Shown here piece after piece: positions 2,573 through 63,446 of a stretch of DNA of 64,000 bases. The stretch is taken from contig NC_091980.1 of the NCBI RefSeq assembly GCF_044704955.1, positions 129,394,001 through 129,458,000 on the forward strand, written 5' to 3'. This DNA is from Pristiophorus japonicus (lineage: Eukaryota). The first letter of the stretch is position 1; the number at the start of each line of letters is the position of its first letter. The position numbers were made by a program, and so were the translations under genes. Below the pieces are notes generated by a model that was not told the origin of the DNA, made no database searches, and worked only from the letters and a program-made list of their open reading frames with translations.

Positions 2573-5113
2573 TCAGTCACTCTCCCCTAGGGTGTGCTTG
2601 TCAAACAGGTACTCCCCCACACCATTCTGAGGGGCTCCCAGTCTCTTCAAGTTGGTGATGTGATCGCCAAGCTTCTTGAACATCTTCACTTGTTCATCCA
2701 AGTAGTGGGTCTCCAGGAAGTCACACAACTGAAAGAGGGAAACTAGTTATGGCCAGTAGCAGATATCACACAACATCAGAGCTTCCCCTCGAGGTGGGAT
2801 GTTAAGTCTTGGACTGGAGGAGGGTCAAGTTGGGCAATTGAGATTGATGTAAATTTGCTCTAATGATCCAGTAACTCCTGTACAATGTGAGCTTAGATCC
2901 TAGAATCACTGGGACACATTTACTTCTCGATGTCCACAGTAGGCCAACTTCCTAGTCCTCTCCCCACCCGCTGAAGAACCCACGAGTGACACCGAAAAAC
3001 AAAGGGGGTCATGGGCATGGAGCTCTTTTGAAACAGCTCAAGGACAGCAATGTTCCACCACCTCCAACTTAACCAGAAACCCACATGAGGAACTTACATG
3101 AGGGTCAGTGCTCCCAGTGGAGAGTCTGTGCAGATCCAGCAGTCTCTGGTTCACATTCTTCTCCATCTGCAGAGCTCTCTGCATCACCTCCAGACCATTG
3201 CTCCACTCATCCTGCTCTGGTTTCTGAAGAGGAAAGTCACAGGTAGTTCACTTACAATGGAACAAACAAAATACACAAGACAGAACAAGGAAAATAGTGG
3301 TGAAAAAGCAACCAGACGTCCATGTTACCATAAACAATGTGTCAGAAATATAGAATTACTGCATTCCACCACCAGAACCACGGAATCAAATTGGAACCAA
3401 TTGCTTCAGAAAGTATTTCAAACAATCAATCAGTCCAAGGGGAGCCAGACAGAAGGCCACTCATTTATTGAATCAAACCTTGATGTCAGACATGATGATC
3501 CGTCCTCCACGCCGATTCAAGAATTGCATCAGTTTCTCAGCATGCTCACGTTCCTCGTGTGACTGCTCCTTGAAGAACTCAGCAAAGTGACTCAGGGCAA
3601 CATCATCCCGGTCAAAATAGAAGGACTACAGAGAGAATTTTAAACAGCTTCTTCAGACTTAGATCTTCATACACAATGCAAGATTATTATTTTCCCCTTA
3701 GTTAGCTAATTCTGAGTCTTTCAAAAATAAATACCATTTGTGAACTAGCTAAAGTGCATTTCACTTCACTAATCGGAGTTGGATAACCACTCCTCCCTGT
3801 AACAGGATTAGGGATGCCCAGTAAAACTCAATTCTACTCCTGGACAAGTAATACTTCCGGTCAAACAGAGGCCCCGTCTCAGGTGGATGTGAAAGATCTC
3901 AAGGAAGAGACATTTACACTAGGCCTATATTATCTAGAGTTAAGAAAAAGAATTAGAGGTGATCTCAATGAAACATACAAAATTCTTACAGCGCTGGACA
4001 GGGTAGATGCAGGGAGGATGTTTCCCCTGGCTGGGTAGTCAAGAATAAGACTGAGTGGAGGAGAAATTTCCATTCAGGACTGAGGGGAGGAGAAATTTCT
4101 TCCCTCAGAGGGTGGTGAATCTTTGGAATTCACTACCCCAGAAGAGTATATTCAAGACAGATCAATAGATTATTGGATATTAAGGGAACAAAGGGATATA
4201 GGGACACTGCAGGAAACTAGAGTTGAGGTAGAAGATCAGCAATGATCTTATTGAATGACAGAGCAGGCTCGAGGGGCCAATGGCCTACTCCTATGTTCCA
4301 TGTACTACTGCAGGGAGCTCTCTGCAGTGTCCTGGCTAATACTTATCCCTCAACCAACACCACTAAAACAGATGATCTGATCATTATCTCATTGCTGTTT
4401 GTGGGAGCTTACTGTGCACTTATTGGGTGCAACATTTCCCACATAACAGGTAACTACACTTAACTCCTTCATTGGCTACAAAGCACTTTGGGACATTCCA
4501 AGGTAGTGAAAGGCACTATAGAAATGATTATTCTCCATTCTACTTCAAGATTCAGATAGTGCGAACAATCCTCTACTCCAGTAGTTTACACACCAATAGT
4601 GTAATAGAGATCTCAGCAGTGAGCAAGGCTCCAACACCAGGATTCTCAGTACTTCACCTCCAATTAATGAGAACACTAGTGAGGAGCTGTCCACATTTCA
4701 CTCACTACAGTCCCCCCACTGAAACTGAACATTGTCTCAGGTCAACAGGCCCCTGACCAGGTTTGTGCTCTTCTGTCACACACTCAGGCAGCAGCTGAGC
4801 TGGTTTCAGATATTAAACCTCAATAGAGGGTAGCTGCTACAAGGAGCAGTCCATTAACTCAACAAGATCCCCCTGTATTACACACCTGAAGTCCTCACTG
4901 CCCATAGACTCTTCTCCCCCAGGAAAGGAAGTCCAGAAAAATACAGTTTAAAGACAGTTCATCAAACTGGAGAATTTCCAACTTTTCAGAATACAAAAAT
5001 ACAAGACTCACCATAGAGTGGTAAACTTAGGAGGAACAGAGCTCCATATTGATCTGCTTGTTGACAGCAGCCTCACAGTCCTTGTGGTAGTTCTGACACA
5101 CTTGAGAGGCCAT
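2573..5113 (-). pseudogene. Ferritin heavy/middle-subunit-like gene, copy A1, with a premature stop
   Basis: Four GT-AG exons: 5113-5012, 3625-3479, 3223-3098, 2728-2573 (102+147+126+156 nt). Translation [33 protein letters not shown] / [32 protein letters not shown]... / ...[13 protein letters not shown] at 5029-5027 replaces the Tyr codon of paralogs. The polyA signal reads AATATA (2450-2445). Confidence 0.9.
3865..4535 (+). mobile_element. Deu-domain SINE (SacSINE1/AmnSINE-like) interrupted by a CR1 3' fragment, intron 1 of A1
   Basis: caggtggatgtgaaagatc ... tatccctcaaccaacacc..attgctgtttgtgggagctt..gcactttgggac. Same structure at about 34390-34990 and from about 63750. Confidence 0.6.
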
Positions 5114-5189
5114 CTTCACTATCTATATTATACTATTATTTCTCACAATCACCTGCCACGTTCTAACACTGACCCTTTCTCACACAAGC

Positions 5190-5280
5190 TCCTGTATTTA
5201 TACGACTGGGACAGCCTGAATTCAAAGAAGGAATGACATCACCAATGATGATTGACAATCCCTGAGAGCCAATCAGGAAT
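5190..5280 (-). promoter_or_regulatory. Core promoter of A1: TATA box, CRE-like site, CCAAT boxes
   Basis: TATAAATA on the minus strand at 5202-5195, about 80 nt upstream of the ATG. TGACATCA near 5233 and CCAAT near 5242 and 5269. The same layout occurs upstream of A2. Confidence 0.6.
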
Positions 5281-5309
5281 CTTCCTTGAATCCAGTTACC
5301 AATTAACAA

Positions 5310-8351: not shown

Positions 8352-11855
<3,504 letters not shown>

Positions 11856-11867
11856 CCTAATTTGCTT

Positions 11868-11900
11868 TTCCAAAATTCTAAGCCTTATTGAAGCAAGAAG
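11868..11900 (-). promoter_or_regulatory. Degenerate iron-responsive element in the 5' UTR of B1
   Basis: Gene strand CTTCTTG-C-TTCAA-TAAGGC-TTAGAATTTTGGAA. The 5' arm matches the ferritin IRE (TTCTTGCTTCAA) but the loop is not CAGUGN. Confidence 0.6.
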
Positions 11901-12824: not shown

Positions 12825-13140
12825 AAATAATTACATTTATATAGCGCCTTTCATGGTCTCAAGATGTCCCAAAGGTCTTTACAACAAATGAAGTATTTTT
12901 GGAAGTATAGTCAATGTTGTAATGTAGGAAATTACAACAATGCGTGCGGCAGACAATTTGCGCACAGCAAGCTCCCGCAAACAGCAGTGTGATAATGACC
13001 AGATAATCTGTTTAGGTTGAGGGATAAATATTGTCAAGGACAACAGAGAGAACTCCCCCTGCGCTTCTTCGAAATACCATCCTGAGATCTTTTATGTCCA
13101 CCTAAGTGAGCAGCGGTCTGGCGCCTCATCCGAAAGGCAG
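12825..13140 (-). mobile_element. Deu-domain SINE fragment (paralog about 47000-47240)
   Basis: Reverse complement of the SINE body at 4305-4530, running directly into the 33-bp array. Confidence 0.65.
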
Positions 13141-13535
13141 CACCTCCGACAGTGTTGGTCTTCCTCAGTACTGCCCCTCCGACAGTGCTGGTCTCCCTCA
13201 GTACTGCCCCTCCGACAGTGCAGCGCTTCCTCAGTACTGCCCCTCTGACAGTGCAGCGCTCCCGCAGTGCTGCCCCTCCGACAGTGCAGCACTCCCTCAG
13301 TACTGCGCCTTTGACAGTGCAGCGCTCCCTCAGTACTGCCCCTCCAATAGTGCAGTAGTTCCTTAGTACTGCCGTTCCAACAGTGCAGCACTCCTCAGTA
13401 CTGCACCTCTGACAGTGCAACACTCCCTCAGTACTGCCCCTCCGAAAGTGCAGCGCTCCTTCAGTACTGTCCCTCTGACAGTGCAATGCTCCCTCAGTAC
13501 TGCACCTCTGACAGTGCAGCACTCCCTCAGTACTA
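13140..13535. repeat. 33-bp minisatellite, about 12 units
   Basis: Unit cagtactgcccctccgacagtgcagcactccct. It explains the 11-aa periodic ORFs in several frames. Confidence 0.92.
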
Positions 13536-14369
13536 CCTCTTGTCTGTCAATATCTAGCTCAATCATCTCTAAATTCTCCACGGTCTCTGCCTCCGCGATT
13601 CCCAGACTCAACTCCTGTGTTGGTGGCTTGTGGCCCAGAGCCATTTAGTTTGTGTTCCCACTGTCGAATTAACTTCCCTTCTCTCATTCTCTTGCATGTT
13701 CCCAAATTTAATGCTATTTCCCACCCAGCAGCGCATCTCGATACCTTTGTATTTGTAGGACTGCCTCGCCCCTATTATTAGATCCATGCAAGTTTTGAAT
13801 GTGTATGTGTTTTTTTTTATGTTTTAAATATCTGAGAAGACACCTTTTGCACTTGTGCATTCTGTCTGATTTTACATGTACTACGGTAATTCTGCAGTAC
13901 ATTCTGATGGGGCTTGACAGGATAGATGTAGGGAGGATGTTTCCCCTGGCTGGGGAGTCTAGAATACGTGCTCACAGTTTCAGAATAAGCAGTCGGCCAT
14001 TTAGGATTGAGATGAGGAGAAATTTCTTCACTCAGTCGGTGGTGAATCTTTGGAATTCTCAACCCCAGAGAGCTGTGGAGGCTGCGTCATTGAATACATT
14101 TAAGGTGGAGATAGATGGATTTTTGAACGATAAGGGAGACAAAGGTTATGGGGAACAGGCAGGAAATTGTTGAGGCCAAGATCAGATCAGTCATGATATT
14201 ACTGAATGGAGGTGCAGGCTTGAGGGGCCAAATGGACTAATCACATGATGTAAACCTCTCTGCCTCCTTTAAGACACTTGACCAGTTCAGCTGTTGTATT
14301 ACAGCATTGCAACACAAGAATGAAATGCATGAATAGAATTTGCAAGATATACGTAGAATTGAAATGAGG

Positions 14370-16012: not shown

Positions 16013-20333
<4,321 letters not shown>

Positions 20334-26560: not shown

Positions 26561-27697
26561 CTTGAGCTCAAACATTGCGGGTCTCTATAGCTGTTACTCA
26601 CTTCTTTACCCACACAGCTTAACAGAAAATCCACAGCAGCAGCGGTGCGTTTAGTGAGCTACTCACAGTAATAACTCTGAATGCAAAGGGTATAGATGCA
26701 TTTAAGGGAAAGCCAGATAAATATAAGGGAGAAAGGATTAGAAGGATATGCTAATAAGTCTAGATGAAGTGGGGTGGGAGAAGCTTAAACCACAGCATGG
26801 GCCAGTTGGCCCGAATGGTCTTTTCCTGTGCTGTAAATTGTAAGTAATTCTTAAAACATGAGCACCTGTAAAGTTTCACATCGAGTGAGCTGGAGATTTT
26901 GTTGAATACATGAAGCTATCAAACGCATCAGCACGCAAACCCAGGCTGACTCATGGAACTGTGGCTCATCAATATATGAAAATTTGTAACATTGATATAC
27001 CAAAGGTGCTTGAATGTTGCTAATACATTAACCTGGAATGTCTGTACACAACAATTTAATTGCACTCAATACAGTTCTCAGCTAAATTCTTAAAAATAAC
27101 TTGTAAACACTGGATTATTGGAACTGCAGCAATACCATTTGAATCCATTCATCGCCTCGAAGGAGAGAAATGGAGATCTAATCCAGGGTGATAGTAATGA
27201 AATTCACAATGGTACTAAAAATAAAATTGATAGTAGCTTATAAATTGAGTGTTTAGGCATTGCGGCCAGGGCAGGGTAGAAATGGTTTTAACATCTTGGG
27301 CCTTTTGCTTTGTGGAATTAAATACTTTTACTCCTTCCAGATGTATTAAATTTTGTTAGAATATCGTTAGTCTTTCAATACTTTACCCAATTCCTTATTC
27401 ATGTGTGTCATGTTTGTAACCTTCACATAACTGTAACCTTTATGTAACAACACTGTACACTGTATACACCTGAGAAATGCACACCTTGACCACAGGGGGT
27501 GGACTTGCAGGAGACACTTCTCCGTTGGTCATCCAGGTATATAAAGGGAGGTCCCACGCAGGGTCAGCTCTTCTTGGATCTGGAAATAAAGGTTCAGGTC
27601 ACGTCGTGACTTTTTCTGCAGTACATGACTTGTGTGATTCTATAGTAAGGTGTAAGGACACTACATTTGGCGACGGGAAAACGAGAATGAGCGACCC

Positions 27698-28630
27698 ATG
27701 AGGATGGTCACTGGTAGCACAGAGGAACGGTACTGTGTTGGTGAGGACTGGGACGATTTCGTTGAGAGGCTCCAGCAGAACTTTGTCACGAACGACTGGC
27801 TGGAAGAGGAAGCGGCTGAGAAGCGGAGGGCACATCTACTGAGCAGCTGCGGATCCAAGACGTATGCGCTGATGAAAGACCTGCTCGCATCTGAGAAGCC
27901 GGTGGACAAGTCCTTTGAAGAGCTCAGCACACTGATCGGTGAGCACCTCAAACCGGCGAGCAGTATACACATGGCCCAGCACCGGTTCTACACACACCGG
28001 CGTCGGGAGGGACAAAGCATATCGGACTTCATTGCGGACCTTCGGCGATTGGCCAGCCTCTGTAAGTTCACAGATGCCTGCAGGGGGGAGATGTTAAGGG
28101 GTTTCTTCATTGAGGGCATTGGTCAAGCCAGGATTTTCAGGAAGCTTATTGAGACTAAGGACTTGACTTTGGAAAGGGCAGCGTTGATAGCTCAGACCTT
28201 CATGGCAGGGGAAGAGGAGACCAAGATAATTTACGTGCGCAGTCCTGGTTCCAACGTAGCGATGGACCAGGGAGTTAACATTGTAAACGTGACTCAGAAC
28301 CCCGCAGGCAGGCAAGGGCAATTCGACACCGCCCAGGCAGCAACAGACTCTCGGGTGGGCCGGCAACAGAGACAATGGCAGGGGGATCGGCAATTCATGC
28401 CATCACAAGGGACAATGCGTCCTGGGATGGGACCATTGACACTCACCAACAGAGTGCTCAGGAGTAATCAAAGAGACAATTAGAGAGGAATGCCTGGTAA
28501 TAGTTCCTTTGTTCACAACAATCTCAGCTCATGCTGGAGGTGCGGTGGCAGACATGCTGCGAAAACCTGTGGTTTCAACAATTTATCTGTAGAAACTGTA
28601 ATTTCAGTGGACATTTGGTCAGAATGTGCA
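27698..28630 (+). pseudogene. Gypsy gag with zinc knuckles, interrupted
   Basis: ORF 27698-28483 (WDDFVERLQQNFVTND...FYTHRRREGQSISDFIADLRRLA). Cys/His knuckles CWRCGGRH and CRNCNFSGHLVRMC follow a TAG stop. Confidence 0.85.
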
Positions 28631-28739
28631 GAAAACCCGTTGCGAGGCTAATTTACGAGGCAGAGGAACAAGACGAGGGGTCTGCAAGGCAGGTTGATGC
28701 TTGGGGCAAAGCCATGGACGCTGAAGTCCAGCGGGTTCA

Positions 28740-31650
28740 TGTGGCAGACATCCACAGCTCGTATACCAAAACGCCACCTATGATGATGAAAGTACTATTA
28801 AATGGCATCCCGGTACACATGGAGCTGGACACAGGAGCCAGCCAGTCACTTATGAGTGCCCAACAATTTGAAAAACTATGGCCACTCAGAGCTAACAGGC
28901 CCAAACTGGAACGCATTGACATGCAGTTAGGAACTACACCAGAGAGATCATCCCAGTGCTAGGCAGTGCAAACTTGGTGGTCACACACAATGGATCGGAG
29001 AACTGGCTGCCACTCTGGATTGTCCCGGGAATGGTCCCACGCTCTTGGGGAGGAGCTGGTTGGCCGAGATGAACTGGAAATGGGAGGATGTGAACACCAT
29101 TTCATCTGTGGAGAAAAGTTCATGCTCACAGGTCCTACAGAAATTTGAGTCACTTTTTCAACCAGGTGTTGGGACTTTTAAGGGCACCAAAGTAGTGACC
29201 AGTGCCGTATGTGATGCGTGAGAGGATTGAGAGTGAGTTGGACAGGCTGCTAAGAGAGGGTATAATTTCGCCTGTTGAATTCAGTGACTGGGCAAGCCCC
29301 ATCGTTCCTGTCCTTAAAGCGGATGGCTCGGTCAGGATTTGTGGCGACTACAAGGCCACCATCAACCGAGTGTCACTACAGGACCAATACCCGTTTCCGA
29401 GAGCAGAGGACCTTTTTGCCACACTGGCAGGTGGCAAGCTGTTTACCAAGTTGGACCTCACTTCAGCCAACATGACTCAGGAACTGGCTGAAGAATCCAA
29501 GCTTCTGACCACCATCACTAAGCACAAGGGGCTATTTGTTTACAACAGGTGTCCATTTGGCATTCATTCAGCGGCCGCTATCTTCCAGAAGAACATGGAA
29601 AGCCTGCTTAAATCCATTCCTGGAACAATCGTATTCCAAGATGACCTCCTAATCACGGATCGAGACAACCGAGTAACACCTCCACAATCAAGGAGATGCT
29701 ATGCCGACTGGACCGGGTAGGCCTGTGACTAAAGAAGTCCAAGTGCGTGTTTTTGGCCCCAGAGGTCGCATTTTTGGGCAGGTGCGTTGCGCAGATGGGA
29801 TCTGGCCTACCGAATCCAAAATGGAGGTGATCCGTCGTGCGCCCAGGCCCGGCAACACATCGGAGCTGCGGTCATTCCTGGGACTCTTGAACTACTTCGG
29901 GAACTTTCTGCCGAACTTAAGCACATTGTTGGAGCCGCTACATGTACTCCTGCATAAGGGTTGCGAATGGTTTTGGGGGGACTGTCAAGAACGGGCTTTC
30001 AACCGGGCACGGAACCCGTTTTGTTCTAACAAGCTGTTGACCTTGTCCAACCCCTGTAAGAAACTGGTTTTAACGTATGATGCATCATCCTATGGGGTTG
30101 GGTGCGTGTTGCAGCAGAGTAATGATGAGGGCCAACTCCAACCTGTGGCTTATGTCTCCAGGTCACTCTCCCAGGCAGAACGGGCACACGAGATGGTTGA
30201 AAAGGAAACACTCGCATGTGTCTATGGGGTGAAAAAGATGCACCAGTACCTTTTCGGTAGAAGGTTCGAGTTAGAAACGGACCACAAGCCATTAACATCC
30301 CTGTTGTCCAACAGCAAGGCTGTCAATGCCAATGCGTCAACTCACATACAGCGGTGGGCCCTCACATGGCTGTGTATGACTACACCATATGGCACCGGCC
30401 TGGCACCGCAAATTGTGCTGACGCGCTCATCAGGCGCCCACTGGCGACCACTGAGGGGACGTCGGAGCAAAGCGCGGAGATGGTCATGGCTGTTGAGGCT
30501 TTCGACACTGCAGGCTCCCCCATCACAGCCCGCCAGATCAAAATCTGGACCAACAGAGATCCCCTCCTATCCCTGATAAAGAAATGTGTCCTGACTGGGG
30601 ATTGGGCACCCGCACACGGAGCTTGCCCCGAGGAAGTCAGACCGTTTCACAGACGGATGGACGAGCTCTCCATTCAAGCCGACTGCCTGCTATGGGGCAG
30701 CCGGGTAGTCATGCCCCAGAAAGGAAGGGAAGAATTCATCAGGGAACTCTACAGCGAGCACCCTGGCATCGTGTTATTGAAGGCCATTGCCCGGTCACAT
30801 GTATAGTGGCCGGGAATTGATTCAGACCTGGAACACTTTGTTCGCAGGTGCACGACGTGTGCTCAGCTGGGAAATGCCCCCAGGGAGGCCCCACTCAGCC
30901 TGTGGCCCTGGCCCACCAGGCCATGGTCATGCATTCACGTCGACTATGCGGGTCCGCTCATGGGAAAAATGTTCCTGATTGTTGTCGATGCACACTCGAA
31001 ATGGATCGAGTGCATCATATTGATTTCGTGCACGACATCCACCACTGTGGAGAGTCTGCGTTCGGTCTTTGCGACCCACGGCTTGCCGGACATCCTGGTT
31101 AGCAACAGTGTCCCGTGTTTCACTAGCTATGAATTCCAGGAGTTTATGTCGGGTAATGGTATCAAACATTTCAGGACAGCACCATTCAAGCCGGCTTCCA
31201 ATGGCCAGGCGGAACGTGCGTTTCAAATCATAAAACAGGGCATGCTCCGGATTCAAGGACCCTCCCTTCAGTAGCGCCTATCGAGCCTCCTGCTGGCCTA
31301 TAGGTCCCGATCGCATTTGCTCACGGAAGTCCCGCCCGCGGAACTACTCATGAAATGCGGCTGTCCCTCATTCATCCAATCCTGTCAGACATTTTTGAGG
31401 GCAAGCGCCAGTCCCAAAGCGGGTGCCATGATCGCAACTCAGTGGGGAGATGCATAGAAATCAATGACCCTGTATTCGTTATTATGCTTTTGGACACAAG
31501 TGGCTTGAGGGTACCGTAATTGGCAAAATTACGGCAAAAAAAGAGGGGAATAGGGTCATAGTGGTCAGACTTAACAATGGGCAGATATGCCGCAAACATC
31601 TGGACCAAGTAAAGAAAAGGTTCAACATGGACATGGAGGAAGAACATGAG
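28740..31650 (+). pseudogene. Gypsy pol (protease, RT, RNase H, integrase), frameshifted
   Basis: Protease LDTGAS; RT WASPIVPV..RICGDYK..FQDD; RNase H DASSYGVG..TDHKPL; integrase HPG..IVVDAHSKW..SNGQAER. These motifs are spread over several broken ORFs. Confidence 0.9.
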
Positions 31651-33042
31651 ATGTTACCTACACCACTGCCAGTGAACGAGCAACAAGGACATGCACCAAC
31701 ATGCACAGTCCCTGCGGTCAGCCCAGACAGACCTCAGGTGACAGAGACGTATGCCAAGGTTCAACCACCAGAGCCCCAACTGCGGTGCTTCAAGAGAGAG
31801 CGTCGAGCGCCTAAAAGACTGAATCTTTGACCCAAAGATGGTGGCAAGGGCGGGGTGCGGGGGGAAGGTGATGTCATGTTTGTAACCGGCACATAACTGT
31901 CACCTTTATGTAACAACACTATACACACCTGAGAAATGCACACCTTGACCACAGGGGGTGAACGTGTGGCAGACACTCCTCACCTGGTCATCCAGGAATA
32001 TAACGGGAGGTCCCACGCAGGGTCAGCACTTCTTGGTCCTGGGAATAAAGGTTCAGGTCACGTAGTGATTTTGACTGCAGTACATGCCTCATGTGAAACT
32101 ATAGTAAGGTTTAAGGACACTACACTGTGAATGGTGGTTGTGTTGGCAAGTTATTCAACCATGATGGGAGCAGGTGGAAGAGAAGCTATCCCACAACCAC
32201 ACGCACTAGGATATCCACACTAACCAATGAAGCTGTGACAGCAAGCTGATAACACCTGTTGCTTTCCCTCCTCACCCAATTGTAGTGCCCCGCCATTTTG
32301 CTTGTCTGCCAACAAAGCTTCACTGCTGCTATAGGCTTTGTGTTGTGAGTCCACTTACTGAATTACCTGGATAACTGAACAGGATGTGGTGCAGCTACTG
32401 AATACAAACTGTTTTTCACAAGGCAGATACACTAAATAGGAAGCTAATCCAGGACTTTTTCTTCACTGGACTGAAATGGTGCGACAATGAATTACTGGTA
32501 AACTGACCATGTGTTTAACAGATGTTACATCTTGTTGGATTGAATTGTCATTTGTCCAAAGACATAGTTGGAACAGGTAATTTTATACAGCTTCTAAGTC
32601 CCAAGCTCTAGAGATGCCTCCCTAAACATGTCTATATTCCATACCTCTGACCAGGCTTGTGGTCAGTAGGCCAATATCCTTTGGGGCTGTCAGTTATCCA
32701 AACACATTCTTGAACATTTTAGATCTTACAACAGCTGCCTGAATATCCCAATCAATACGTATACATTACACTAGAGGATAAACACATTTCATAGGACTGA
32801 ATCCCATATAACTATTGCACAGCTGAGTGTAATTCTTGTTTGAGGGAAACCAAGTTATGTTAATGAAAAATAAGTAACCACTTAAACTTACAAGGTAACA
32901 CAGCCCACTGTTGAAAAGTTTATTTACAGTTATGGGTCTTCGCTCTTTGTACAAAGTCACAAGCCATCATTCCCTACAGGACAGGGGCCTGATTATATAA
33001 ATACAAGTTCTAAACACAATAAGCTTGATCCCATCAGTCAGT

Positions 33043-35564
<2,522 letters not shown>

Positions 35565-40127: not shown

Positions 40128-46048
<5,921 letters not shown>

Positions 46049-46060
46049 CCTAATTTGCTT

Positions 46061-46093
46061 TTCCAAAAATCTAAGCCTTGTTAAAGCAAGAAG
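46061..46093 (-). promoter_or_regulatory. IRE-like hairpin with a variant loop in the 5' UTR of B2
   Basis: Gene strand CTTCTTG-C-TTTAA-CAAGGC-TTAGA-TTTTTGGAA: C bulge, 5-bp upper stem with one U-G pair, 6-nt loop with C1 and G5. It lies about 30 nt downstream of TATAAA (46129-46124). Confidence 0.6.
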
Positions 46094-46295: not shown

Positions 46296-47239
46296 TCTTT
46301 TTGTCAGCAGCAATTGTCAATTTAAAGTTAAGCATGGGCCGCTTTTTAAAGAGGCACAACCAATAAAGACTGCAACTTCACAAAAGATGTTAAAAGAAAC
46401 TTAACAAGTTAAATAAAAATTCTATACCCGGGGTGATGATGCACTCCAGTCCCTCCTCTCACAGAAGGCTGCGAGCGTGTCGATGGACACCACATGCTCC
46501 ATCTCCAGGGACACCCAGGCGCAAATGTAGCCACGGAAGAGAAGCGGGTTGTCGGGCCGAATGACCACCTGGAATGCCCGCTGGCCAGCCCTGTTGACGG
46601 CCTCTTGCCCAGGTTACTTGAATCTTCCGTTGTGTGCGAGTCAGTGTCTTTTTAATAGTTCTGTGTGGTTCAGTGGGTTGGTCATTTTCAGGTATCTGTG
46701 GATGCAACATCCAAAGACAGTGCAGTGATGTTGCAACGCAACCGGCAGCGGGTCAGGTGAATGGACAGTGCGTGTGAGGAATTTGACAAGCTCAAGTGCT
46801 CAGATACTCCATCACTTCCAAGTTTAGTGAGCACCTGTACACACAGGAGCTAGAATGTGGCATGGACCGTGGGATTTTGAGTTCTTGTTATGTTACCATG
46901 ACATTTTACAAGTAATGAAATGGACTGAAGTCCAAAAAGAAAGAATATCTCCTTGCACCTGGACTTAATTGTGGCAGCCTTGGGAACGTTTATCCTCTTA
47001 GAAAGAAGAAATAATTCCATTTATATAGCCCTTTCATGGCCTCAGGATGTCTCAAAGCTCTTTACAACCAATCAAGTTCAGCAGTGTGTTAATGACCAGA
47101 GAATCTGTTTTGGTTGCGGGATAAATATTGTCAAGGGCACTGGAGAGAACTCCCCCTCCGCTTCTTCGAAATAGCATCCTGAGATCTTTTACGTCTACCT
47201 AAGAGAGCAGACAGTCGAGCATCTCATCTGAAAGACGGC

Positions 47240-47437
47240 ACCTTCGACAGTGCAGCAATCCCTAAGTACTGCCCCTCTGACAGTGCAGCAATCCCTCAGC
47301 ACTGCCCCTCTGACAATGCAACGCTCCCTCAGCACTTCCCCTCCAACACTGCGGCACTCCCTTAGTACTGCCCCTCCGACAGTGCGGCGCTCCCTCAGTA
47401 CTGCCCCTCTGAAAGTGCGGCACTCCCTCAGTACTGT
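47240..47437. repeat. 33-bp minisatellite, about 6 units, followed by a short (TG)n
   Basis: Same unit as 13140-13535 at the paralogous site. Confidence 0.9.
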
Positions 47438-50436: not shown

Positions 50437-53400
50437 TCAGTCACTCTCCCCCAGAGTGTGCTTGTCAAACAGGTACTCTCCCAAGCCATTCTCAAGGGCT
50501 CCCAGTCTCTTCAGGTTGGTGATGTGATCGCCAAGCTTCTTGATCATCTTCACTTGTTTATCCAAGTAGTTGGTCTTCAGGAAGTCACACAACTGAAGGA
50601 GGAACAGAAAGGAGTTATGGCCAGTAGCAGATATCAAGGAACATTGGAGCTTACTGCTTGAGAGTTTGAATTTTAGTCCTCTTGGACTGAGGATAGTTCA
50701 GTGGTGCAATTGAAATTGATGGAATTACTGCATCATTTCGATGAAAACTTGCTATACAAAAAGGAGCTGGGATCAGACACTTACAATATCTACCCTAAAA
50801 TAGACCCAACACAAAGCTATTGGGCACAGAGATCTTTTTAAATTAAGTCCAAGGACAGCAACTTACCCAAAAGCCCACATTGAAGCATTAGGAACTTACA
50901 TGAGGGTCAGTGCTCCCAGTGGAGAGTTTGTGCAGATCCAACAGACTCTGGTTCACATTCTTCTCCATTTGTAGAGCTCTCTGCATGACCTCCAGACCAT
51001 TGCTCCACTCATCCTGCTCTGGTTTCTGAAGAGAAAAGTCAGATTAAAACAAACAAGTATTTTTTGTCTTTAGATGCTCTGATAATGACTCCACGAGGCA
51101 ATGTATTGTACATTAACTGTATTGACCCTAGTGCGTTTAATGGAACTCCAGTGGTGAGGATCACACCTGGTGGCCTGCCACACCTGTGCAGGTAACCTGC
51201 AAGTCTGACTGCAGTGCCCTGTAGTGGCATATATGCAATACTACAAGCAGTAAAAACAAGTTTGGAAATAGGACCGTATTGAAGGAAATTAAGGATAAAA
51301 AAATGCAATCGGAAGTCTAGGTTACCATGAAACAATGTTTTAAAATATTGAATTACTGCATTAAGTCAACTACTGGTGTCAAATTTATGAGGTGAATAGC
51401 ATAGATGTATTTAAGGGGAAGCTAAATAAGTACATGAGGGAAAAAGGATTAGAACGACATGTTGCTGGATAAAGCAAGGTGGGAGGACAACATCTGGAGC
51501 CTGATCACCAGCATGGACCAGTTTGTCCAAATTGCTGGTTCCTGTGGAATTGGAACCAACTCCTTTACAATGTATTGTGAACAATCAGTTTAAGGGGAAC
51601 CAAACAGAAGGGCCCTCGTTTATGGAGCCAAACCTTGATGTCTGCCAAGATGATTCGGCCTCCACGCCGATTCTGGAATTGCATCAGTTTCTCAGCATGC
51701 TCACGTTCCTCATGTGACTGCTCCTTGAAGAACTCAGCAAAGTGACGCAGGGCAACATCATCCCGGTCAAAGTAGAAGGACTGCGGAGTGATCAGAAGAG
51801 TAGTTGATTATTGCATGGCAGACCCATCATGGGCACTGTACATGAAGCCAAACTCATGTTTCTTGTTTTAAGGGCTCAGTCTCACTGAACTTATGTATAG
51901 TTATGGAAACTAGCACCTACTCAAGTAACCTGGTAAAGATATTGGATAATCTCAGCTCCAGCCATAGGGAAACTTAACATGAGAAATATGAACAGGAGTA
52001 GACCACACAGCTGAGCCTGTTCCACCATTGAAGATTATGGCTGATCTGGTCATGGACTCATCCCCACCCATTCCCACATAACCCTTTAGCGTTTAAGAAA
52101 CTATTACAGTCTTAAATTTATTCAATGTCTCAGCTTTCCACAGCTGAGGCAGCAAATTCCACAGATTGACAACCCTCAAGAAATTTATCAGTTCTAAATG
52201 GGCAGCCCCTTATTCTAAGATCATGCCTCTAGTTGTTGTCTCCCCCATCAGTGGAAACATCTTCTGTATCCACCCAGCCATGCCCCCTCAATCTTATACA
52301 TTTCAATAAAATCACCTCATTCTTCTGAATTCCAATGAGTAGATGCAGCCCCCCCACCCCCCTCCACTCCTGCTGTACTGTGGCACTTAGCAATCTTGCT
52401 CCATTTAAATAAACATTTGCTCTTTGATTTTTTTTTTTTGCGCTAAAGTGCATGACCTCACTTTCCAATAGTCACATTTTTGCCCACTCACTTAGCCTGC
52501 CTATGTCCTTTTGCAGAAGTGTGTTCTCCTCACACATTACAGATACAAAGTTGGGAGGAATAGCAAACTAGGCTACGTTACCGAATTGGAAGGAGGGACA
52601 GAGTGTAATATATAGATTGTAAACAGTTGGGGTCCCAGCACTGATCCCTGCAGCACTCTACTGGATACTGGTTGCCAACCAGAGAATGAACCATTTATCC
52701 TGACTCTGTTCTTTAGCCAATCCTCTATCCATGCTAATATATTACCCCAAAGCCTATGAACTTTCATCTTGTGCAGTAATCTTTTGTGGCAACTTGTCAA
52801 ATGCCTTCTGGAAGTCCAAATACACCACAGCCACTGGTTCACCTTTAACCACCCTGTTTGTTACATCCTCAAAGAATTCCAGCAAATTTGTCAAACACTA
52901 CTTCCCTTCATAAATACATGCACACACTGCCTGATCAAATTTTGCTTTTCCAAATGTCCTGCTATGTTAATAATGGAAACCAACATTTTCCCCGTCACAG
53001 ATTAGACTAACTGGTCTATAGTTTCATCCTTTTTATAAAAAAATAGGGGCATTACATTTGCAGCTTTCCAAACTGCTGGGAGCTCCCCAGAATCCAGGGA
53101 ATTTTAGTAAATTACAACCAATGCATCCACAATCCCTGCCGCTACTTCTCAAGACCCGAGGATGCAAGGCATCAGGACCATTTATCTGCCTTTAGCCCAA
53201 TTATCTTACTGAGTACGACCTCCTTCGGTGATTGTTACTGCATTAAGTCCCTCCCCCCTATAGCCCCTTGACTATCCATCATTGGAATGTTGTTACTCTC
53301 CTCTACTGTAAAGACAGATACAAGATATTTGTACAGATTTTCTGCCATCTCTATGTTGCCTATTACTAATTTCCCAGTCTCATCCTCTTGTGATTTAGAA

Positions 53401-54689
53401 AAATCTGCAGACTATGGAAATATGGAGTTGTATCACTCCACCCAACATTCAGCAAGGCACAATGGACTGAATGGCCTCCTGTAGTGCATCACTCCATGAT
53501 CACCAATTCAGCTTTGGTTGAACAGGCTTAAAACTGGAACATGAATCTTGGCACCCAATATTCATTGCAGCTCTGGAAATTAGTGAAGGAATTGCCACAA
53601 GATTTATACCCTGGTCACCAGTAGCATGTTCCAATAATAGTTTATTAACCCAAATACATTTTGTACAGGCTAGTTGAGGGGGTAGTATTAGAAGTCAAAG
53701 CAACTTCCAAAACTAGAGATCTAGTCACAGTGCAGAATTCATATGTATGAAAAAAAAAGTGAAGAACTAGCTGAATTTTACTGGCTACAATCATGCCAAG
53801 GAACTAAAACTACCACAAGCAGCATTAATTTGGCACACAGTCTATACCAAATCAAAGCATTGTAGAGGAGAACCAGAGACCACAGAATAAAAGTTTAGAG
53901 AACCCCTCAAAATTTGAGGTGCTTGGTGAAGGTCACAGGGGTTAAGGGAGTCCACTGAGTACAGACAATTGATGATTAACTTTCTTTGCTGTATTGATGC
54001 TAAAAGCTAGGGGAAAGACAGAATGATACAAACTGGTATTTAAAATTAAGAGGTTAGAAACACTTGGAACAGGAGGGAAGCAGAAACATTTGTAACACTT
54101 TCTTCCCATCCTCCCCCTGTGGAGGTGAGGGATGGCTGGGAAAGAAAGTGTTTCAGATTTCCATCTGGGAAAGAATACTTCCTGACATCCCTCCAAAAAA
54201 ATACAGCGAGGCCATTTATGACATCACCCATTGAACCAGCAAGGTAAGGAAAGTCCATGGAGTGATTTAGAATGAGGATACAAATTCTGAATTCCTTGCA
54301 TTGTGTGCAGAATATATTCCAAATAAACTTCATCAAGCTCAAGATCCCAGGAAAAAGAAAGATAATCAGATAATACATTTGCTGCAAGGAACAGAGAGAA
54401 TGTTAATAAATTCAAATTAAGATAAATTGTATCATATTATAGCTTTAAAAGTGAATTCAATGCATAGATTCAGTGGGGTGGGGGTGGGGCAGAAAGAGAG
54501 AAATAGGTGGGCTGAGTACAGCACAGGATTTCATAAATTTACATTACAAAGTCTCCATTGTGAAGTGGCAAAAAACACAAAACTCACCATAGAGATATAA
54601 ACATAGGAGGAATAGAGCTCCATGTTGATCTGCTTGTTGACAGCATGCTCACAGTCCTGGTGGTAATTCTGACACACTTGGGAAGCCAT
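50437..54689 (-). CDS. Ferritin heavy/middle-subunit-like protein, copy C2, intact ORF with altered channel residues
   Basis: Exons 54689-54588, 51780-51634, 51025-50900, 50592-50437, GT-AG, open frame. Exon 4 reads [23 protein letters not shown] at 54772-54765 and AATAAA at 50321-50316. Confidence 0.88.
51975..53390 (-). mobile_element. CR1 LINE fragments in intron 1 of C2
   Basis: [26 protein letters not shown]; paralog of 17600-19015. Confidence 0.78.
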
Positions 54690-54759
54690 CTTAATATTTT
54701 ATTTTTCCAAAGTAAAAACTTTGTAGAAGTACAAAGGTAACATTTCACCAAACTCAAAC

Positions 54760-54935
54760 TCCTTTATTTATACTGAGGGATAATCCAGGGTGTGGCACTC
54801 TTGATGATGAGTGACAGTCATCAATACCCAATCAGAAGTTGCATCTTCTCAGAGCACCAATCAAGTAAAGGGAGGAGGGAGATGGACTCCCAGAGTCAGT
54901 CAGATCTTTGAAGAATGAACATCATTGGCTGATTT
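54760..54935 (-). promoter_or_regulatory. Proximal promoter of C2
   Basis: TATAAATA at 54772-54765, CCACACCC at 54795-54788, paired CCAAT boxes. Confidence 0.6.
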
Positions 54936-55945: not shown

Positions 55946-57428
55946 CATCATCATAGGCAGTCACTCGGCATCCAGGAAGACTTGCTTTCACACCTAAAGT
56001 GAGTTCTTTGGTGGCTGAACAGTCCAACATGAAAGCCACAGGCCCTGTCACAGATGGGACAGATATTCATCGGGGGAAGGGGGTGGGTGGCACTGATTTA
56101 CCACATGCTCCTTCCGCTGCCTGACCTCTTCACGCTCGCAGCGTTGAGATTCGAAGAGCTCAACGCCCTCCCGGATGCACTTTTTCCAACTAGGATGGTC
56201 TTCGGCCAGGGTCTCCCAGGCATCAGTGGTGCTGTCGCAGGGAGGTTTTGAGGGTGTCCTTGTAACGTTTCCACTGCTCAACTTTGGCTCGTTTGCCATA
56301 AAGGTGTTCCGCATAGAGCAGTTGCTTAGGGAGTCTCATGTCTGGCATGTGGACTAAGTGGCCTGCCCAGCAAAGCTGATCACATGTGGTCAGTGCTTCA
56401 ATGTTGGGGATGTTAGCCTGCACGAGGATACTGATGTCGGTGCGTCTGTCCTCCCAGGGAATTTGCAGGATCTTACGGAGGCATCTTTGGTGATATATCT
56501 CCAGCGACTGGTGTGCCTTCTGTAAGTCGTCCATGCCTCTGATCCATGCAGTAGGGTGGTATTACTGCAGCCCTGTAGAGCGTGAGCTTGGTGGTAGGTT
56601 TGAGGGCCTGGTCTTCGAACACTCGTTTCCGCAGGCAGCCGAAGGCTGCACTGGTGCACTGGAGGCGATATTGAATCTCCGCATCAATGTCTGCCTTTGT
56701 TGACAGGAGGCTCCCGAGGTATGGGAAGTGGTCCACGTTTTCGAGGGCCACGCCGTGAATCTTGATGTCTGGGGGTCGTGCTGTGCGACGAAGACAGGCT
56801 GATGTGGACATTTGTCTTAAGGATCTTAAGTGCAAGGCCCATGATTTCATATGCCTCGGTGAATACATCGACTATATCCTGGAGTTCAGCCTCAGAATGT
56901 GCGCAGACGCAGGCGTCGTCCGCATACTGCAGTTCAACGACAGAGGTTTGGGTGGTCTTGCACTGGTCTGGAGAGGGCATAGGTTAAACTGCTTCTCACT
57001 GATTCTGTAGTTTAGTTCCACTCCAGCAGGGAGCTTGTTGACAGTAAGGTGGAGTTGGCAGCGAGAAAGATTGAGAAAAGCGTTGGAGCGATGACGCAGC
57101 CCTGTTTGACCCCGCTTCGGACGTGGAACGGGTCTGTAACAAATCCGCTGATAAGGATCATGGGCTGCATGACGCCGTGGAGCAGGCGAAGGATGTTGAC
57201 AAAGCTTTGGGCGTATCCAAAATGGAGGTAGGACGCACCATAAGCCCTCACAGTCGACAGTCTCAAAGGCCTTTATAAGATCGAAAAATGCCATGTATAA
57301 GGGCTGGCACTGCTCCCTGCATTTTTCCTGCAATTGGAGTGCTGCAGAGATCATGTCCGTTGTTACCCGTAGGGGACGAAATACGCACTGTGACTCCAGG
57401 AGGAGCTCCTCGGCCACAGGGAGAACAC
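55946..57428 (-). mobile_element. RTE-clade LINE, duplicate of 21597-23088
   Basis: Same motifs, same truncation point and same flanks. Confidence 0.88.
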
Positions 57429-58119
57429 GGTTGAGGTGAACTGAACCACATCCCTGTGCAGCATGTAAAGTTTATATAGAACCTTGGCTAGACAACACTT
57501 GGAGTATTGTGCACAGTTCTGATCTCCATAGAATTATATAGAAAGTTAGAATCAATAATCTAAGAGAGACTTCAAAAGAAACTTCTTTACTCAGAGAGTG
57601 TTCAGAATGTTTAACTCGCTATCAAAAGGAATAGTTGAGACAAAAAGCATAGACGCGGTTAAGGGGAAGCTGGATGAACACTTGAGGGAGGAAGGATTGG
57701 AAGGATATGCTGATAGGGTTAAATGAAGTTGGGAGGAGGCTCAGTGTGTGAAGTCAAGTCCTCTCAGTACTTCGCTCTCCATGCTCATGATTGAAAGACT
57801 ATTAAATCGATCTTGTCTCATTCGGTTCCTCACCTCATCATTGATGTGTTTTACGTTCAAGAAGAACCGCTCACCACTGCAATTTGCCAGGCCTATTTCT
57901 GTGCTGTAAATTCGATGTAATTCTTAAAACAAGGGCATCTGTAAAGTTTTTCACATCGAGTGAGCTGAAGAATTTGTTTTATCTGAAACATGAAGCCGTC
58001 AAACCCATCAGCACGCAAAACCCAACATGACTTGTAGAATTGTGACTCATCAATGTATGAATTGTGGTGACATCTATACTCCAAAAGTGCCATTGAGAGA
58101 TGCAAAGAGTACAGTAAAA

Positions 58120-60680: not shown

Positions 60681-62392
60681 CTTGAGCTCAAACATTGCGG
60701 GTCTCTATAGCTGTTACTCACTTCTTTACCCACACAGCTTAACAGAAAATCCACAGCAGCAGTGGTGCGTTTACTGAGCTACCTGCAGTAATAACTCTGA
60801 ATGCAAAGAGCATCGATGCATTTAAGGGAAAGCTCGATAAACACAAGGGCGAAAGGAATAGAAGGATATGCTGATAGGTCTAGATGAAGTGGGGTGGGAC
60901 AAGTTTCACATGGAGCATAAACCACAGCATGGGCCAGTTAGCCCAAATGGTCTTTTTCCTGTGCTGTAAATTGTAAGTAATTCTTAAAACACAAGCACCT
61001 GTAAAGTTTCACATCGAGTGAGCTGGAAAGTTGATACATGCAACCATCAACACGCAAACCCAGGCCGACTCATGGAACTGTGGCTCATCAATATTTGAAA
61101 TGTTGTAACATCGATACCCGAAAGGCGCTTGAGTGTTGCTAAGACATTAACGTGTAATGTCTGTACTTGGCAATTTAATTGCACACACAGTTCTTAGCTA
61201 AATTCCAAAAAATAACTCAAACACTGGATTATTGGAGCTGCAGCAATACCATTTGGATGGATTCATCGCCACGAAGGAGATAAATGGACATGTAGTCCAT
61301 GATGACAGTAATGAAATTCACACTGGTACTTACAAAAAAAAAAATTTGCTTATAAATTGTGGCCAGCAATGTGTTTAACAGCTTGTGCCTTTTGCTTTGT
61401 GGAATTAAATACATTTGCTCATTCCCCATGTATTAAATGTTGTTGGAGTATTGTTAGTCTTGTAATACCTTATTCATGTGAATGGAGTTTGTGTTGACAA
61501 GTTATTCAACCATTACAGAAGCAGGCAGAAGAGAACCTGTCCCAGAACCACTCAGGTATCCACACTAAGTACTGAAGCTTTGACAGCTGTTGCTTTCCCT
61601 CCTCACCCAATTGTAATGCCCAGAGTTCAGGGTGCTGAGATATTATTTTTCTGCCTACAAAGCTTAACAGCAAGCCTATAGGAGCAGTGGTGAGACCCAT
61701 TACTGAACTACCTAGATAACTGCAAAGGATCTGATGCAGCAATTGAATACAAACTGCTGTTCGTTCACAAGGCAGATAGATTAAATAGGAAGCTAATCCA
61801 GGACTTTTTCTTCACTGGACTGAAATGGTGCAATAATGAATTACTGGCAAATTGGCCCTGAGTTTAGCAGATGTTACATCTTGTTGGATTGAATTGTCAT
61901 TTGTACAAAGACAGATCGTTGGAACAAGTAATTGTATACAGCTTATCAGTCCCAAGCTCTCGAGATGCCTTCCTAAACATCTCTGTACCTCCGCAATACA
62001 TACCTCTGACCAGACTTTTGGTCACTGGGCCAACATCCCATGGGGCTGTCAGTTGTCCAAACATACCGTTGAACATTTTAGATCTTATAACAGGTGCCTG
62101 AATGGCCTAGTCAATACACAAGGGGAAAACACATTTCATAGGACTGAATCCCATATAAATGTTGCACAGCTCAGTGTAATTCTTGTTTCATGGAAACCAA
62201 GCTCTGTTAAATGAAAAATAAATAACCACTCAAACTTACAAGGCAACAAAACACAGCCCAATGTTGAACAGTTTATTTACTGTTATGGGTTTCAGCTTTT
62301 TGTACAAAGTCACAAGCCTTCATTCCCTACAGGATAGGGGCCTGATTATATAAATACAAGTACTAAACACAATAAGCTTGATCCCAGTCAGT

Positions 62393-63446
62393 TTAGTCAC
62401 TATCCCCCAGAGTGTGCTTGTCAAAAAGGTACACCCCCATGCCATTCTCAGAAGCTCCCAGTCTCTTCAGGTTGGTGATGTGATCACCAAGCTTCTTGAT
62501 CATCTTCACTTGTTCATCCAAGTAGTGGGTCTCCAGGAAGTCACACAACTGAAAAAGAGGGAAATGAGTTATGGCCAGTAGCAGATATCAAGGATCAGAG
62601 CATCCCCCCCAAGTTAGGATTTTAATTCTCTAGGAGTGGAGAAGGATCAGGTAGGGCAATTGAAATTGATGTACATATGCTCTAATGATCCAGTAGCCAA
62701 TGTACAATGTGAGCTTAGATCCAGGAAACATTGGGACCCATTTATTTCTCCATGTCCTCAGTAGGCCAACTTCATGGTCCTCTTCCCCCACTCCCTGAAG
62801 AACCCAAGAGAGAACCCCCCCACCCCCAAAAAACAAAGCTATTGGGCATGGAGCACTTTTGAAACAGCTCAAGGATAGCAATGTTCCACCACCTCCAAGT
62901 TACCCAGAAACCCACATGAGGAACTTACATGAGGGTCAGTGCTCCCAGTGGAGATTTTGTGCAGATCCAGCAGACTCTGGTTCACATTCTTCTCCATCTG
63001 CAGAGCTCTCTGCATTGCATCCAGACCATTGCTCCACTCATCCTGCTCTGGTTTCTGAAGAGGAAAATCACAGGTAGTTCACTTATAATGGAACAAACAA
63101 AATACAAAAGACAGTACAAAGGAAAATAAGATTAAAAAAAGCAACCAGAAGTCCATTTTACCATAAACAATGTGTCACAGGAATAAAGAATTACTGAATT
63201 CCACTACTACAACCATGGAATCAATTGCTTTAGGAGGTATTTGAATCAATCAGGTCTAAGGGTATCCAGACAGAAGGCCACTAGATAATTGAACCAAACC
63301 TTGATGTCAGACAAGATGATCCGTCCTCCACGGCGATTCTGGAATTGCATCAATTTCTCAGCATGCTCACGTTCCTCATGTGACTGCTCCTTGAAGAACT
63401 CAGCAAAGTGACACAGGGCAACATCATCCCGGTCAAAGTAGAACGA
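62393..63446 (-). CDS. Ferritin heavy/middle-subunit-like protein, copy A3, exons 2-4 only (exon 1 lies beyond the window end)
   Basis: Exons 63446-63300, 63054-62929, 62548-62393 are of normal length and open. Introns align with A1/A2. AATAAA at 62277-62272. Confidence 0.85.

What the first reader, a model, noticed from the sequence alone, without database searches (positions are those of the whole stretch)
2573..63446. Expanded tandem array of intron-containing ferritin genes built from a three-gene (A-B-C) higher-order repeat
Seen: seven co-oriented 4-exon ferritin genes in 61 kb, sorting by introns and promoters into A1 B1 C1 A2 B2 C2 A3, with shared LINE insertions at matching positions. 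Known: mammals have single FTH1 and FTL loci plus mostly intronless copies, and ferritin is a 24-mer, so co-expressed paralogs can form mixed cages. Inference: a lineage-specific birth-and-death ferritin cluster serving a specialised high-output role. I cannot tell from the sequence whether it has been described before.
Basis: partly seen in the sequence, partly recalled or inferred. Interest (0 to 1): 0.8.

Follow-up and report, generated by a model that had tools for sequence, protein, structure and literature searches.

The report
Giant shark ovarian ferritin gene array
These seven iron-storage genes are a small slice of a roughly 300-copy ferritin array of a kind already reported in sharks; here the copies appear to have lost their iron off-switch and probably stock eggs with iron.

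Summary
The seven co-oriented ferritin genes and their A/B/C sorting by introns and promoters are real. Three are pseudogenes, and gene 7's first exon lies outside the window. The window is about 1% of an array on G000:C4, roughly 127.8-133.4 Mb. An exon-2 probe finds 325 matches genome-wide (control 0), and 22 of 51 sampled copies are intact, so perhaps 140 overall. A-B-C is a local duplication unit; elsewhere the repeat is a C-A pair or irregular, on both strands. The family is shared across cartilaginous fishes. Such clusters, with ovary-specific expression, are already reported for Greenland and white sharks (bioRxiv 10.1101/2024.09.09.611499). What this analysis adds: the copies form their own clade apart from shark H and M ferritins; the ferroxidase centre is intact in 22 of 22 (dN/dS 0.22); no iron-responsive element in 0 of 54 upstream regions, with decayed remnants in place; promoters rich in CCAAT boxes; exons homogenised while introns diverge; six spliced retrocopies pointing to germ-line mRNA. 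Best reading: a gene-dosage array making IRP-independent ferritin to stock oocytes with iron. Known kind; the mechanism is inferred, not shown.

The parts
2573..5113 (-). g1 (A1): ferritin pseudogene; exons 5113-5012, 3625-3479, 3223-3098, 2728-2573; TAA at codon 29; no AATAAA within 300 nt downstream
5159..5171 (-). 13-nt match to the 3' half of the ferritin IRE in the g1 5' UTR; no hairpin (seen in only 1 of 14 class A upstream regions at p<0.01)
   Evidence: p 0.006
8352..11855 (-). g2 (B1): pseudogene; 2-nt deletion at the start of exon 4; TATA box altered
11876..11899 (-). decayed IRE in the g2 5' UTR: 5' arm kept, loop and upper stem changed
   Evidence: p 0.002; no Rfam IRE hit
13137..13540 (.). 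minisatellite of about 33 bp period, shared with unit 2 (47235-47437)
16013..20333 (-). g3 (C1): intact 176-aa ORF; TATA box reads TGTAAA
22235..22786 (-). reverse-transcriptase remnant (LINE-type by inference), at the same place as 56875-57471 in unit 2
27406..32124 (+). LTR retrotransposon (gag, protease, RT, RNase H, integrase in Gypsy order, split over several frames; LTRs 86% alike); present only in unit 1
33043..35564 (-). g4 (A2): pseudogene; frameshifts in exons 1 and 2, stop in exon 3
40128..46048 (-). g5 (B2): intact 176-aa ORF; LTR-bounded insert in intron 1; no AATAAA within 300 nt downstream
42694..45356 (+). LTR-bounded element (LTRs 94% alike, protease remnant) inside g5 intron 1; absent from g2
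46069..46092 (-). decayed IRE in the g5 5' UTR, about 35 nt below the TATA box; CCAAT/ATTGG boxes further upstream
   Evidence: (p 0.004)
50437..54689 (-). g6 (C2): intact 176-aa ORF; E131K and E137K (human E134, E140)
56875..57471 (-). reverse-transcriptase remnant matching 22235-22786
62393..63446 (-). g7 (A3): exons 2-4; exon 1 lies outside the window at G000:C4:129458962; the whole gene is intact

Best explanation
The window is a slice of a ferritin gene-dosage array of about 5.6 Mb and about 300 copies, belonging to a ferritin subfamily of cartilaginous fishes. Shown here: size, about 40% intact copies, intact H-type ferroxidase centre, purifying selection, no canonical IRE, TATA plus 2-5 CCAAT boxes, and spliced mRNA that was retrotransposed. 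Inferred: (1) an IRE-bearing ferritin gene duplicated, probably at the ferritin-M locus now on C19, and a copy founded the C4 array; (2) the IRE decayed, so translation is no longer blocked by IRP1/2 when cytosolic iron is low; (3) many near-identical copies supply a large amount of cytosolic ferritin in growing oocytes, which oxidises and stores maternal iron for the embryo and limits iron-driven oxidative damage in the egg; (4) unequal crossing-over and segmental duplication (A-B-C here, C-A elsewhere, inversions) add and remove copies, while gene conversion confined to exons keeps the product uniform and dead copies accumulate. The identity as a shark ferritin array is about 95% certain; the oocyte iron-store mechanism about 65%.
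For: Size: 325 matches of a 26-nt exon-2 probe at up to 3 mismatches, control 0; all 150 scored protein hits (of 367 candidates) lie on C4 127.9-133.4 Mb. 22 of 51 sampled copies with exon 2 are strictly intact in 754 kb. Seven ferroxidase-centre positions are invariant in 22 of 22; dN/dS 0.22 over 231 pairs. IRE: hairpin scan 0 of 54 upstream regions with 2 of 2 controls positive; Rfam finds IRE_I only in the H and M control loci, none in the window or in 140 kb of array; remnant at p<0.01 in 6 of 6 class B and 11 of 33 class C upstream regions. Loop mutations are the commonest IRE lesions that raise ferritin in people (PMC3585816, passages). 52 of 53 promoters have at least 2 CCAAT boxes, against 8% of shuffles. 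Conversion: dS follows intron-3 divergence up to about 0.17, then stays at 0.15-0.17 while intron divergence reaches 0.6; exon-3 third positions are 92.9% identical both within and between classes, while mid-intron identity between classes is 50-65%; chimeric genes occur (B promoter with A introns). Germ line: 6 of 9 intronless ferritin loci among the top ten hits derive from the array (90-97% identity, spanning exon junctions, one with a poly(A) tract); 3 derive from ferritin H. Ovary-specific expression of the largest cluster in the Greenland shark. A run from a related organism shows exon3-exon4 and exon1-exon2 joints at the splice sites, the first at depth 9529. Origin: the C19 paralogue x3 shares the TATA-box context (score 45, null maximum 25) and has the highest third-position identity to the array (0.64 against 0.52-0.60).
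Against: No tissue data for this organism; the ovary result comes from another shark and from one paragraph of a preprint. Retrocopies show germ-line or early-embryo mRNA of either sex, not oocytes. Run X1 is only guessed to be RNA, its tissue is unknown, and at 80% likeness it may include M-type reads. No CPE in 48 of 51 3' UTRs, so there is no sign of classic maternal-mRNA control. The link between CCAAT boxes and oocyte promoters is recalled; the paper checked did not support it. More than half the copies are dead, which drift-driven amplification would also give. Between-class intron divergence may be inflated by misalignment. Tree support is SH-aLRT from a quick search only (89-93 at the key nodes), and x3 is unresolved in the protein tree.
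Confidence: 0.68

Rival explanations
1. Mostly neutral amplification: a few useful ferritin genes sit in a rearrangement-prone region, and copy number is a by-product of segmental duplication; conversion from a few active genes keeps many passengers looking intact.
For: 29 of 51 sampled copies are not strictly intact; several intact ORFs have altered TATA or poly(A) signals (g3, g5); very recent tandem and inverted duplicates of the window block (97-99.9%); intactness varies from 1 of 6 to 7 of 8 between blocks.
Against: Multi-copy families are kept across many sharks (clusters of 69-180 member sequences); synteny of the clusters is reported as conserved between two sharks about 250 My apart; dN/dS 0.22 and an invariant active site.
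Confidence: 0.17
2. Somatic antioxidant or immune role: the array buffers iron against oxidative stress, ferroptosis or infection in adult tissues, for example in deep-water or long-lived sharks.
For: Ferroxidase-competent ferritin protects against iron toxicity (PMC11719527, passages); IRE loss would also suit stress-driven expression. I recall a later shark genome paper linking an FTH1b expansion to ferroptosis; searches did not find it, so it is unverified.
Against: The one expression report found is ovary-specific; the family is also expanded in shallow-water, shorter-lived carpet sharks and catsharks (life history from own knowledge); array retrocopies outnumber those of housekeeping H 6 to 3 among the top hits.
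Confidence: 0.1
3. The three promoter classes are functionally distinct genes (stage- or cell-specific), and the A-B-C unit is kept to deliver subunits in fixed proportion to mixed cages.
For: Class promoters are old and stable (A versus B/C under 50% alike); A- and C-type copies alternate over 100 kb with 7 of 8 intact; small class-linked residue differences exist.
Against: The order is irregular across the array, B is rare (6 of 53), both flanking A copies and B1 in the window are dead, chimeras mix promoters and bodies, and conversion erases coding differences between classes.
Confidence: 0.1
4. The array, or much of it, is an assembly artefact (haplotypes written in tandem).
For: The window has a twin 260.7 kb upstream at 99.0-99.9% identity (4 stretches, 37 kb compared); other near-identical blocks are implied by repeated spacings.
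Against: Units inside the window are about 84% alike with unit-specific insertions; a third, inverted copy is 97.2-98.8% alike; mean dS among intact copies is 0.156. Artefact could inflate the count but cannot create the array.
Confidence: 0.05

Closest known systems
Greenland shark and white shark FTH1/FTL clusters (bioRxiv 10.1101/2024.09.09.611499; passage and first quarter of the text read, supplements not seen)
   Same: Hundreds of ferritin copies in Mb-scale clusters (222 labelled copies in about 4 Mb there; about 325 in 5.6 Mb here); ancient and shared between sharks; ovary-specific expression reported there.
   Different: The preprint labels copies FTH1 and FTL, reports over 85% full length and at least 90% identity to human orthologues. 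Here the 22 intact copies form one clade apart from shark H and M, are 72-73% identical to mammalian H (g3 as query), only 43% are intact, and no L-type copy was found. IRE loss, promoter classes and conversion are not mentioned in the part read.
RefSeq/UniRef 'ferritin heavy chain(-B, oocyte isoform)-like' proteins of sharks, rays and chimaera
   Same: Same subfamily (K at the human R23 position, M at 141, intact centre in most); three array proteins and the M-type protein of G000 are identical to entries labelled Pristiophorus japonicus.
   Different: Automatic names only. Carpet sharks and Heptranchias also carry a related group with K at the E62 position (P0076, P0079, P0097, P0113), which was not seen among the top 150 hits in G000.
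Vertebrate cytosolic ferritin H and amphibian/fish ferritin M
   Same: PF00210; best PDB matches are frog M and human H chains; four exons; ferroxidase centre.
   Different: The genome's own H (C14) and M (C19) genes carry canonical IREs and R at the NCOA4-binding position; array copies have neither (K in 20, Q in 2 of 22).
Amphibian Fth cluster (PMC13003380, passages) and mouse Fthl17 family (PMC2887969, PMC5312872, listings only)
   Same: Tandem ferritin paralogues; Fthl17 is biased to germ line and early embryo.
   Different: Four to seven copies in frog and newt rather than hundreds; from recall, Fthl17 is intronless and largely lacks ferroxidase activity.

Membership tests
Eukaryotic ferritin | Ferritin domain and close similarity to solved ferritin chains | tested here: met
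   An array-derived retrocopy used as proxy: PF00210 E 2.8e-36; PDB frog M and human H at E about 1e-69
Eukaryotic ferritin | 24-subunit cage assembly and iron mineralisation | not testable with these tools
   Inferred from homology only
H/M-type (catalytic) subunit | Ferroxidase centre E27, Y34, E61, E62, H65, E107, Q141 (residue list recalled; register checked against rabbit H) | tested here: met
   Invariant in 22 of 22 intact copies
FTH1 orthologue | Groups with vertebrate H chains | tested here: not met
   The H clade (SH-aLRT 96) holds G000's C14 gene, not the array (quick tree)
Shark ferritin M orthologue | Groups with shark M-like chains | tested here: not met
   That clade (SH-aLRT 97) holds G000's C19 M gene; the array forms a separate 49-row chondrichthyan clade (SH-aLRT 91)
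FTL (L-type subunit) | Loss of ferroxidase ligands | tested here: not met
   0 of 22 intact copies lose a ligand; no true FTL sequence was in the tree
IRE/IRP-regulated ferritin | 5' UTR hairpin with C bulge, 5-bp stem and CAGUGN loop | tested here: not met
   0 of 54 by hairpin scan; Rfam none in the window or 140 kb of array, controls 45-46 bits; IRP binding itself not tested
NCOA4 ferritinophagy substrate | R23 in helix A (PMC11076521, passages) | tested here: inconclusive
   K in 20 and Q in 2 of 22; R23A abolishes binding, R23L and R23I keep part of it; K was not among the mutants seen
Secreted or yolk ferritin with signal peptide | N-terminal extension before the ferritin domain | tested here: not met
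   ORFs start at the canonical Met, 176 aa; in-frame stops or no upstream ATG in the printed upstream frames; no predictor run
Regular higher-order repeat (A-B-C)n | Constant three-gene period along the array | tested here: not met
   Promoter-class order over 264 kb: A A C B C A B C ? A B A [A B C A B C A] C, then inverted C A; C-A pairs at 130.25-130.35 Mb; C-like only in blocks P and S
Shark ovarian ferritin clusters (bioRxiv 2024.09.09.611499) | Mb-scale multi-copy cluster | tested here: met
Shark ovarian ferritin clusters (bioRxiv 2024.09.09.611499) | Ovary-specific expression and synteny with the reported clusters | not testable with these tools
   No tissue-labelled RNA run was offered; flanking genes were not identified

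The most novel reading that the evidence does not exclude
Cartilaginous fishes have their own ferritin subfamily, older than the shark-chimaera split, that traded the IRE for a CCAAT/TATA germ-cell promoter and is kept in hundreds of copies by exon-limited gene conversion, like histone or egg-coat arrays. It would be a dedicated, iron-sensor-independent maternal iron depot for very large eggs, possibly resistant to NCOA4-driven breakdown until development. The published FTH1/FTL labels would then be misassignments, and copy number should follow egg size and reproductive mode rather than lifespan.
Probability: 0.45. Interest if true: 0.62.

Novelty: new member of a known kind. Interest (0 to 1): 0.4.

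Why it matters
Ferritin is normally a few-gene, IRE-throttled housekeeping system. An array of about 300 copies that has dropped the throttle gives a testable model of how yolk-rich vertebrate eggs are loaded with iron, and an alternative to longevity or stress explanations of shark ferritin expansions. It is also a clear natural case of birth-and-death turnover and exon-limited concerted evolution acting together. The existence of such clusters is already in print, which limits the surprise.

Tried and rejected
Haplotype concatenation of units 1 and 2: rejected (about 84% identity, unit-specific insertions). Array-wide A-B-C repeat: rejected. L-type subunits in the array: none in 22 intact copies; a search with the E62K subfamily protein P0079 showed no closer exon among 150 scored of 1396 candidates, which is not proof of absence. 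CPE motifs: 3 of 51 3' UTRs; E-boxes 0.39 per promoter, not pursued. The look-up of sequencing runs: no RNA holder listed; only one small-share run, laid. Literature support for CCAAT-driven oocyte promoters: the paper checked had none. Searches for a fuller description of the array: ferritin+shark+expansion+genome (145 papers, 30 listed), fth1b+copies (1), shark/ferroptosis/longevity/fth1 (573, 20 listed), ferritin/chondrichthyan/gene cluster/ovary (149, 20 listed), ferritin+elasmobranch+duplicat+genome assembly (2); only the 2024 preprint described it. The library lacks most subscription journals, and that preprint's supplements were not seen. No earlier scan notes on this genome. The careful protein tree did not finish; the quick tree was used. 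Rays nest among G000 copies there on long branches, which I treat as unreliable. One ORF (42910-43500) was left out of the Pfam scan. No structure or complex prediction was run, as the fold is not in question. Flanking genes and synteny were not determined.
Full report
OBSERVATION. The window holds seven minus-strand ferritin genes with exons of 102, 147, 126 and 156 nt and GT-AG introns. g1 has a stop at codon 29, g2 a 2-nt deletion in exon 4, and g4 two frameshifts and a stop. g3, g5 and g6 have intact 176-aa frames. g7's exon 1 lies 962 nt beyond the window end, and the gene is intact. Introns and promoters sort the genes as A1 B1 C1 A2 B2 C2 A3: intron 3 is 85-90% identical within a class and 66-78% between classes. 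The two units align at about 84% over 24.5 kb. They share RT remnants and a minisatellite, and differ by a Gypsy-order LTR element (27406-32124) and an LTR-bounded insert in g5 intron 1. The collinear unit is B-C-A twice; g1 is an older A-type copy. The coding exons, in contrast, are 92-96% identical whatever the class.

SCALE. The window is G000:C4:129394001-129458000 in a 5.92-Gb genome. An exon-2 peptide gave 367 candidates; all 150 scored lie on C4 between 127.9 and 133.4 Mb, on both strands. A 26-nt exon-2 probe with up to 3 mismatches gave 325 matches, control 0; 99 of the 100 listed are on C4. The outermost genes seen are at 127.78 and 133.41 Mb, with 16 kb and 62 kb of empty flank checked; both flank blocks contain an assembly gap. 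I annotated 754 kb in seven hand-picked blocks: 58 loci, 51 with exon 2, 22 strictly intact, 25 if in-frame indels are allowed. That extrapolates to about 140 intact genes, a rough figure since blocks range from 1 of 6 to 7 of 8. Class order beside the window is irregular, with an inversion just downstream; at 130.25-130.35 Mb the unit is a C-A pair; blocks P and S hold only C-like promoters. The window block has a twin 260.7 kb upstream (99.0-99.9%), which may be a recent duplication or an assembly duplicate, and an inverted copy near 129.77-129.79 Mb (97.2-98.8%).

WHAT THE GENES ARE. Homologues at 78-93% identity come from many sharks, rays and a chimaera, in clusters of 69-180 sequences. 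In a quick tree of 94 proteins the array and these homologues form one clade (49 rows, SH-aLRT 91), separate from the H clade, which holds G000's C14 gene, and from the shark M-like clade, which holds G000's C19 gene. Within it, sequences group largely by lineage, as expected under turnover. Three array proteins and the M protein are identical to public entries labelled Pristiophorus japonicus. The C19 locus has three ferritin genes. One of them (x3) shares the array's TATA context and has the highest third-position identity to it, which suggests, without proving, an origin there. All 22 intact copies keep the seven ferroxidase-centre residues; dN/dS is 0.22. The NCOA4-binding R23 is K or Q; the effect is unknown.

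REGULATION. Rfam finds canonical IREs at the H and M genes but none in the window or in 140 kb of array. A hairpin scan found none in 54 upstream regions (53 array genes and one retrocopy flank) and both controls. Between the TATA box and the ATG, an IRE-like remnant is significant at p<0.01 in 6 of 6 class B, 11 of 33 class C and 1 of 14 class A regions; the 5' arm survives while the loop and upper stem are changed. In people, loop and bulge mutations give the highest ferritin levels (PMC3585816, passages), so loss of IRP repression is the likely result; this is inference. 52 of 53 promoters carry at least two CCAAT boxes (mean 3.1, shuffles 0.45); the four canonical genes have 0-2.

EXPRESSION. 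Of nine intronless ferritin loci among the top ten hits, six derive from the array (90-97% identity, across exon junctions; one with 5' UTR and near-full coding sequence, one with 3' UTR and poly(A)) and three from H. Array mRNA was therefore spliced and available for heritable retrotransposition. A public run from a related organism, guessed to be RNA, shows joints at the exon 3-4 and exon 1-2 splice sites and almost no depth on unique non-exonic stretches; tissue unknown. The preprint 10.1101/2024.09.09.611499 reports 155 FTL and 179 FTH1 copies in the Greenland shark, clusters syntenic with the white shark, and ovary-specific expression of the largest. Ferritin heavy-chain transcripts are abundant in zebrafish follicles and other vertebrate ovaries (PMC1488847, passages).

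EVOLUTION. Among intact pairs with alignable intron 3 (210 of 231), dS rises in step with intron divergence to about 0.17 and then stays at 0.15-0.17 while intron divergence reaches 0.6. In the window, exon-3 third positions are 92.9% identical both within and between classes; between classes, intron identity falls from 91% next to the exon to 50-65% mid-intron. Synonymous sites can diverge much further (dS 0.7-1.6 to the canonical genes), so codon constraint alone is an unlikely cause. Exon-centred gene conversion fits, as do chimeric genes. Birth-and-death and concerted evolution act together.

MECHANISM AND RIVALS. Best reading (0.68): a dosage array making IRP-independent, catalytically active cytosolic ferritin that stores maternal iron in oocytes. 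Size, coding selection, IRE absence and germ-line mRNA are shown; oocyte localisation, IRP independence and iron loading are inferred. Rivals: largely neutral amplification (0.17), a somatic antioxidant or immune role (0.10), stoichiometric A-B-C mixed cages (0.10), assembly artefact (0.05; it may inflate the count).

NOVELTY. The kind of cluster is in print and its proteins are in public databases. In five literature searches I found no description of the separate clade, the IRE decay, the promoter classes or the conversion pattern; the library lacks most subscription journals and the preprint's supplements were not seen. Verdict: new member of a known kind, interest 0.4. The A-B-C repeat itself is a local duplication and not the point.

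Noticed in passing
G000:C19 about 93128520-93141730 (L110, L109, L070): A four-exon ferritin gene next to ferritin M with an in-frame N-terminal extension of about 31 residues, rich in Arg and free of acidic residues, like a mitochondrial presequence (DNA, read by eye; no predictor run). Mammalian mitochondrial ferritin is intronless, so an intron-bearing shark counterpart would bear on its origin.
   Followed up: partly
G000:C19 93109381-93121556 (L111, L110): Third C19 ferritin gene (x3) with K at E61 and Q at H65, so probably non-catalytic; no CCAAT boxes; shares its TATA context with the array.
   Followed up: partly
L032-L035 (C10, C12, C17, C18): Four dispersed copies of only the first 60-90 nt of the ferritin M mRNA, each with a perfect IRE (45.2 bits) and no coding sequence.
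   Followed up: no
G000:C4 129.00-129.26 Mb versus 129.26-129.52 Mb: Tandem duplicate of about 261 kb, 99.0-99.9% identical where compared; a possible false duplication in the assembly.
   Followed up: partly
G000:C4 129469418-129504111 (window coordinates 75418-110111): Palindrome with 11-kb arms at 98.5% identity just downstream of the window, where gene orientation flips.
   Followed up: no
P0076, P0079, P0097, P0113: A second expanded ferritin group in carpet sharks and Heptranchias with K at the E62 position; in four carpet sharks it lies on contigs of the same length as the catalytic group. It could be the 'FTL' of the preprint; not found in G000.
   Followed up: partly
L130 (G000:C20:22404824-22405327): Ferritin H retrocopy with an open frame of 207 codons and a short internal deletion, 95% identical to the C14 gene.
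   Followed up: no
window 1-678, 5988-6657, 36695-37250: A non-coding block repeated next to the A-type genes (80-91% alike); not identified.
   Followed up: no
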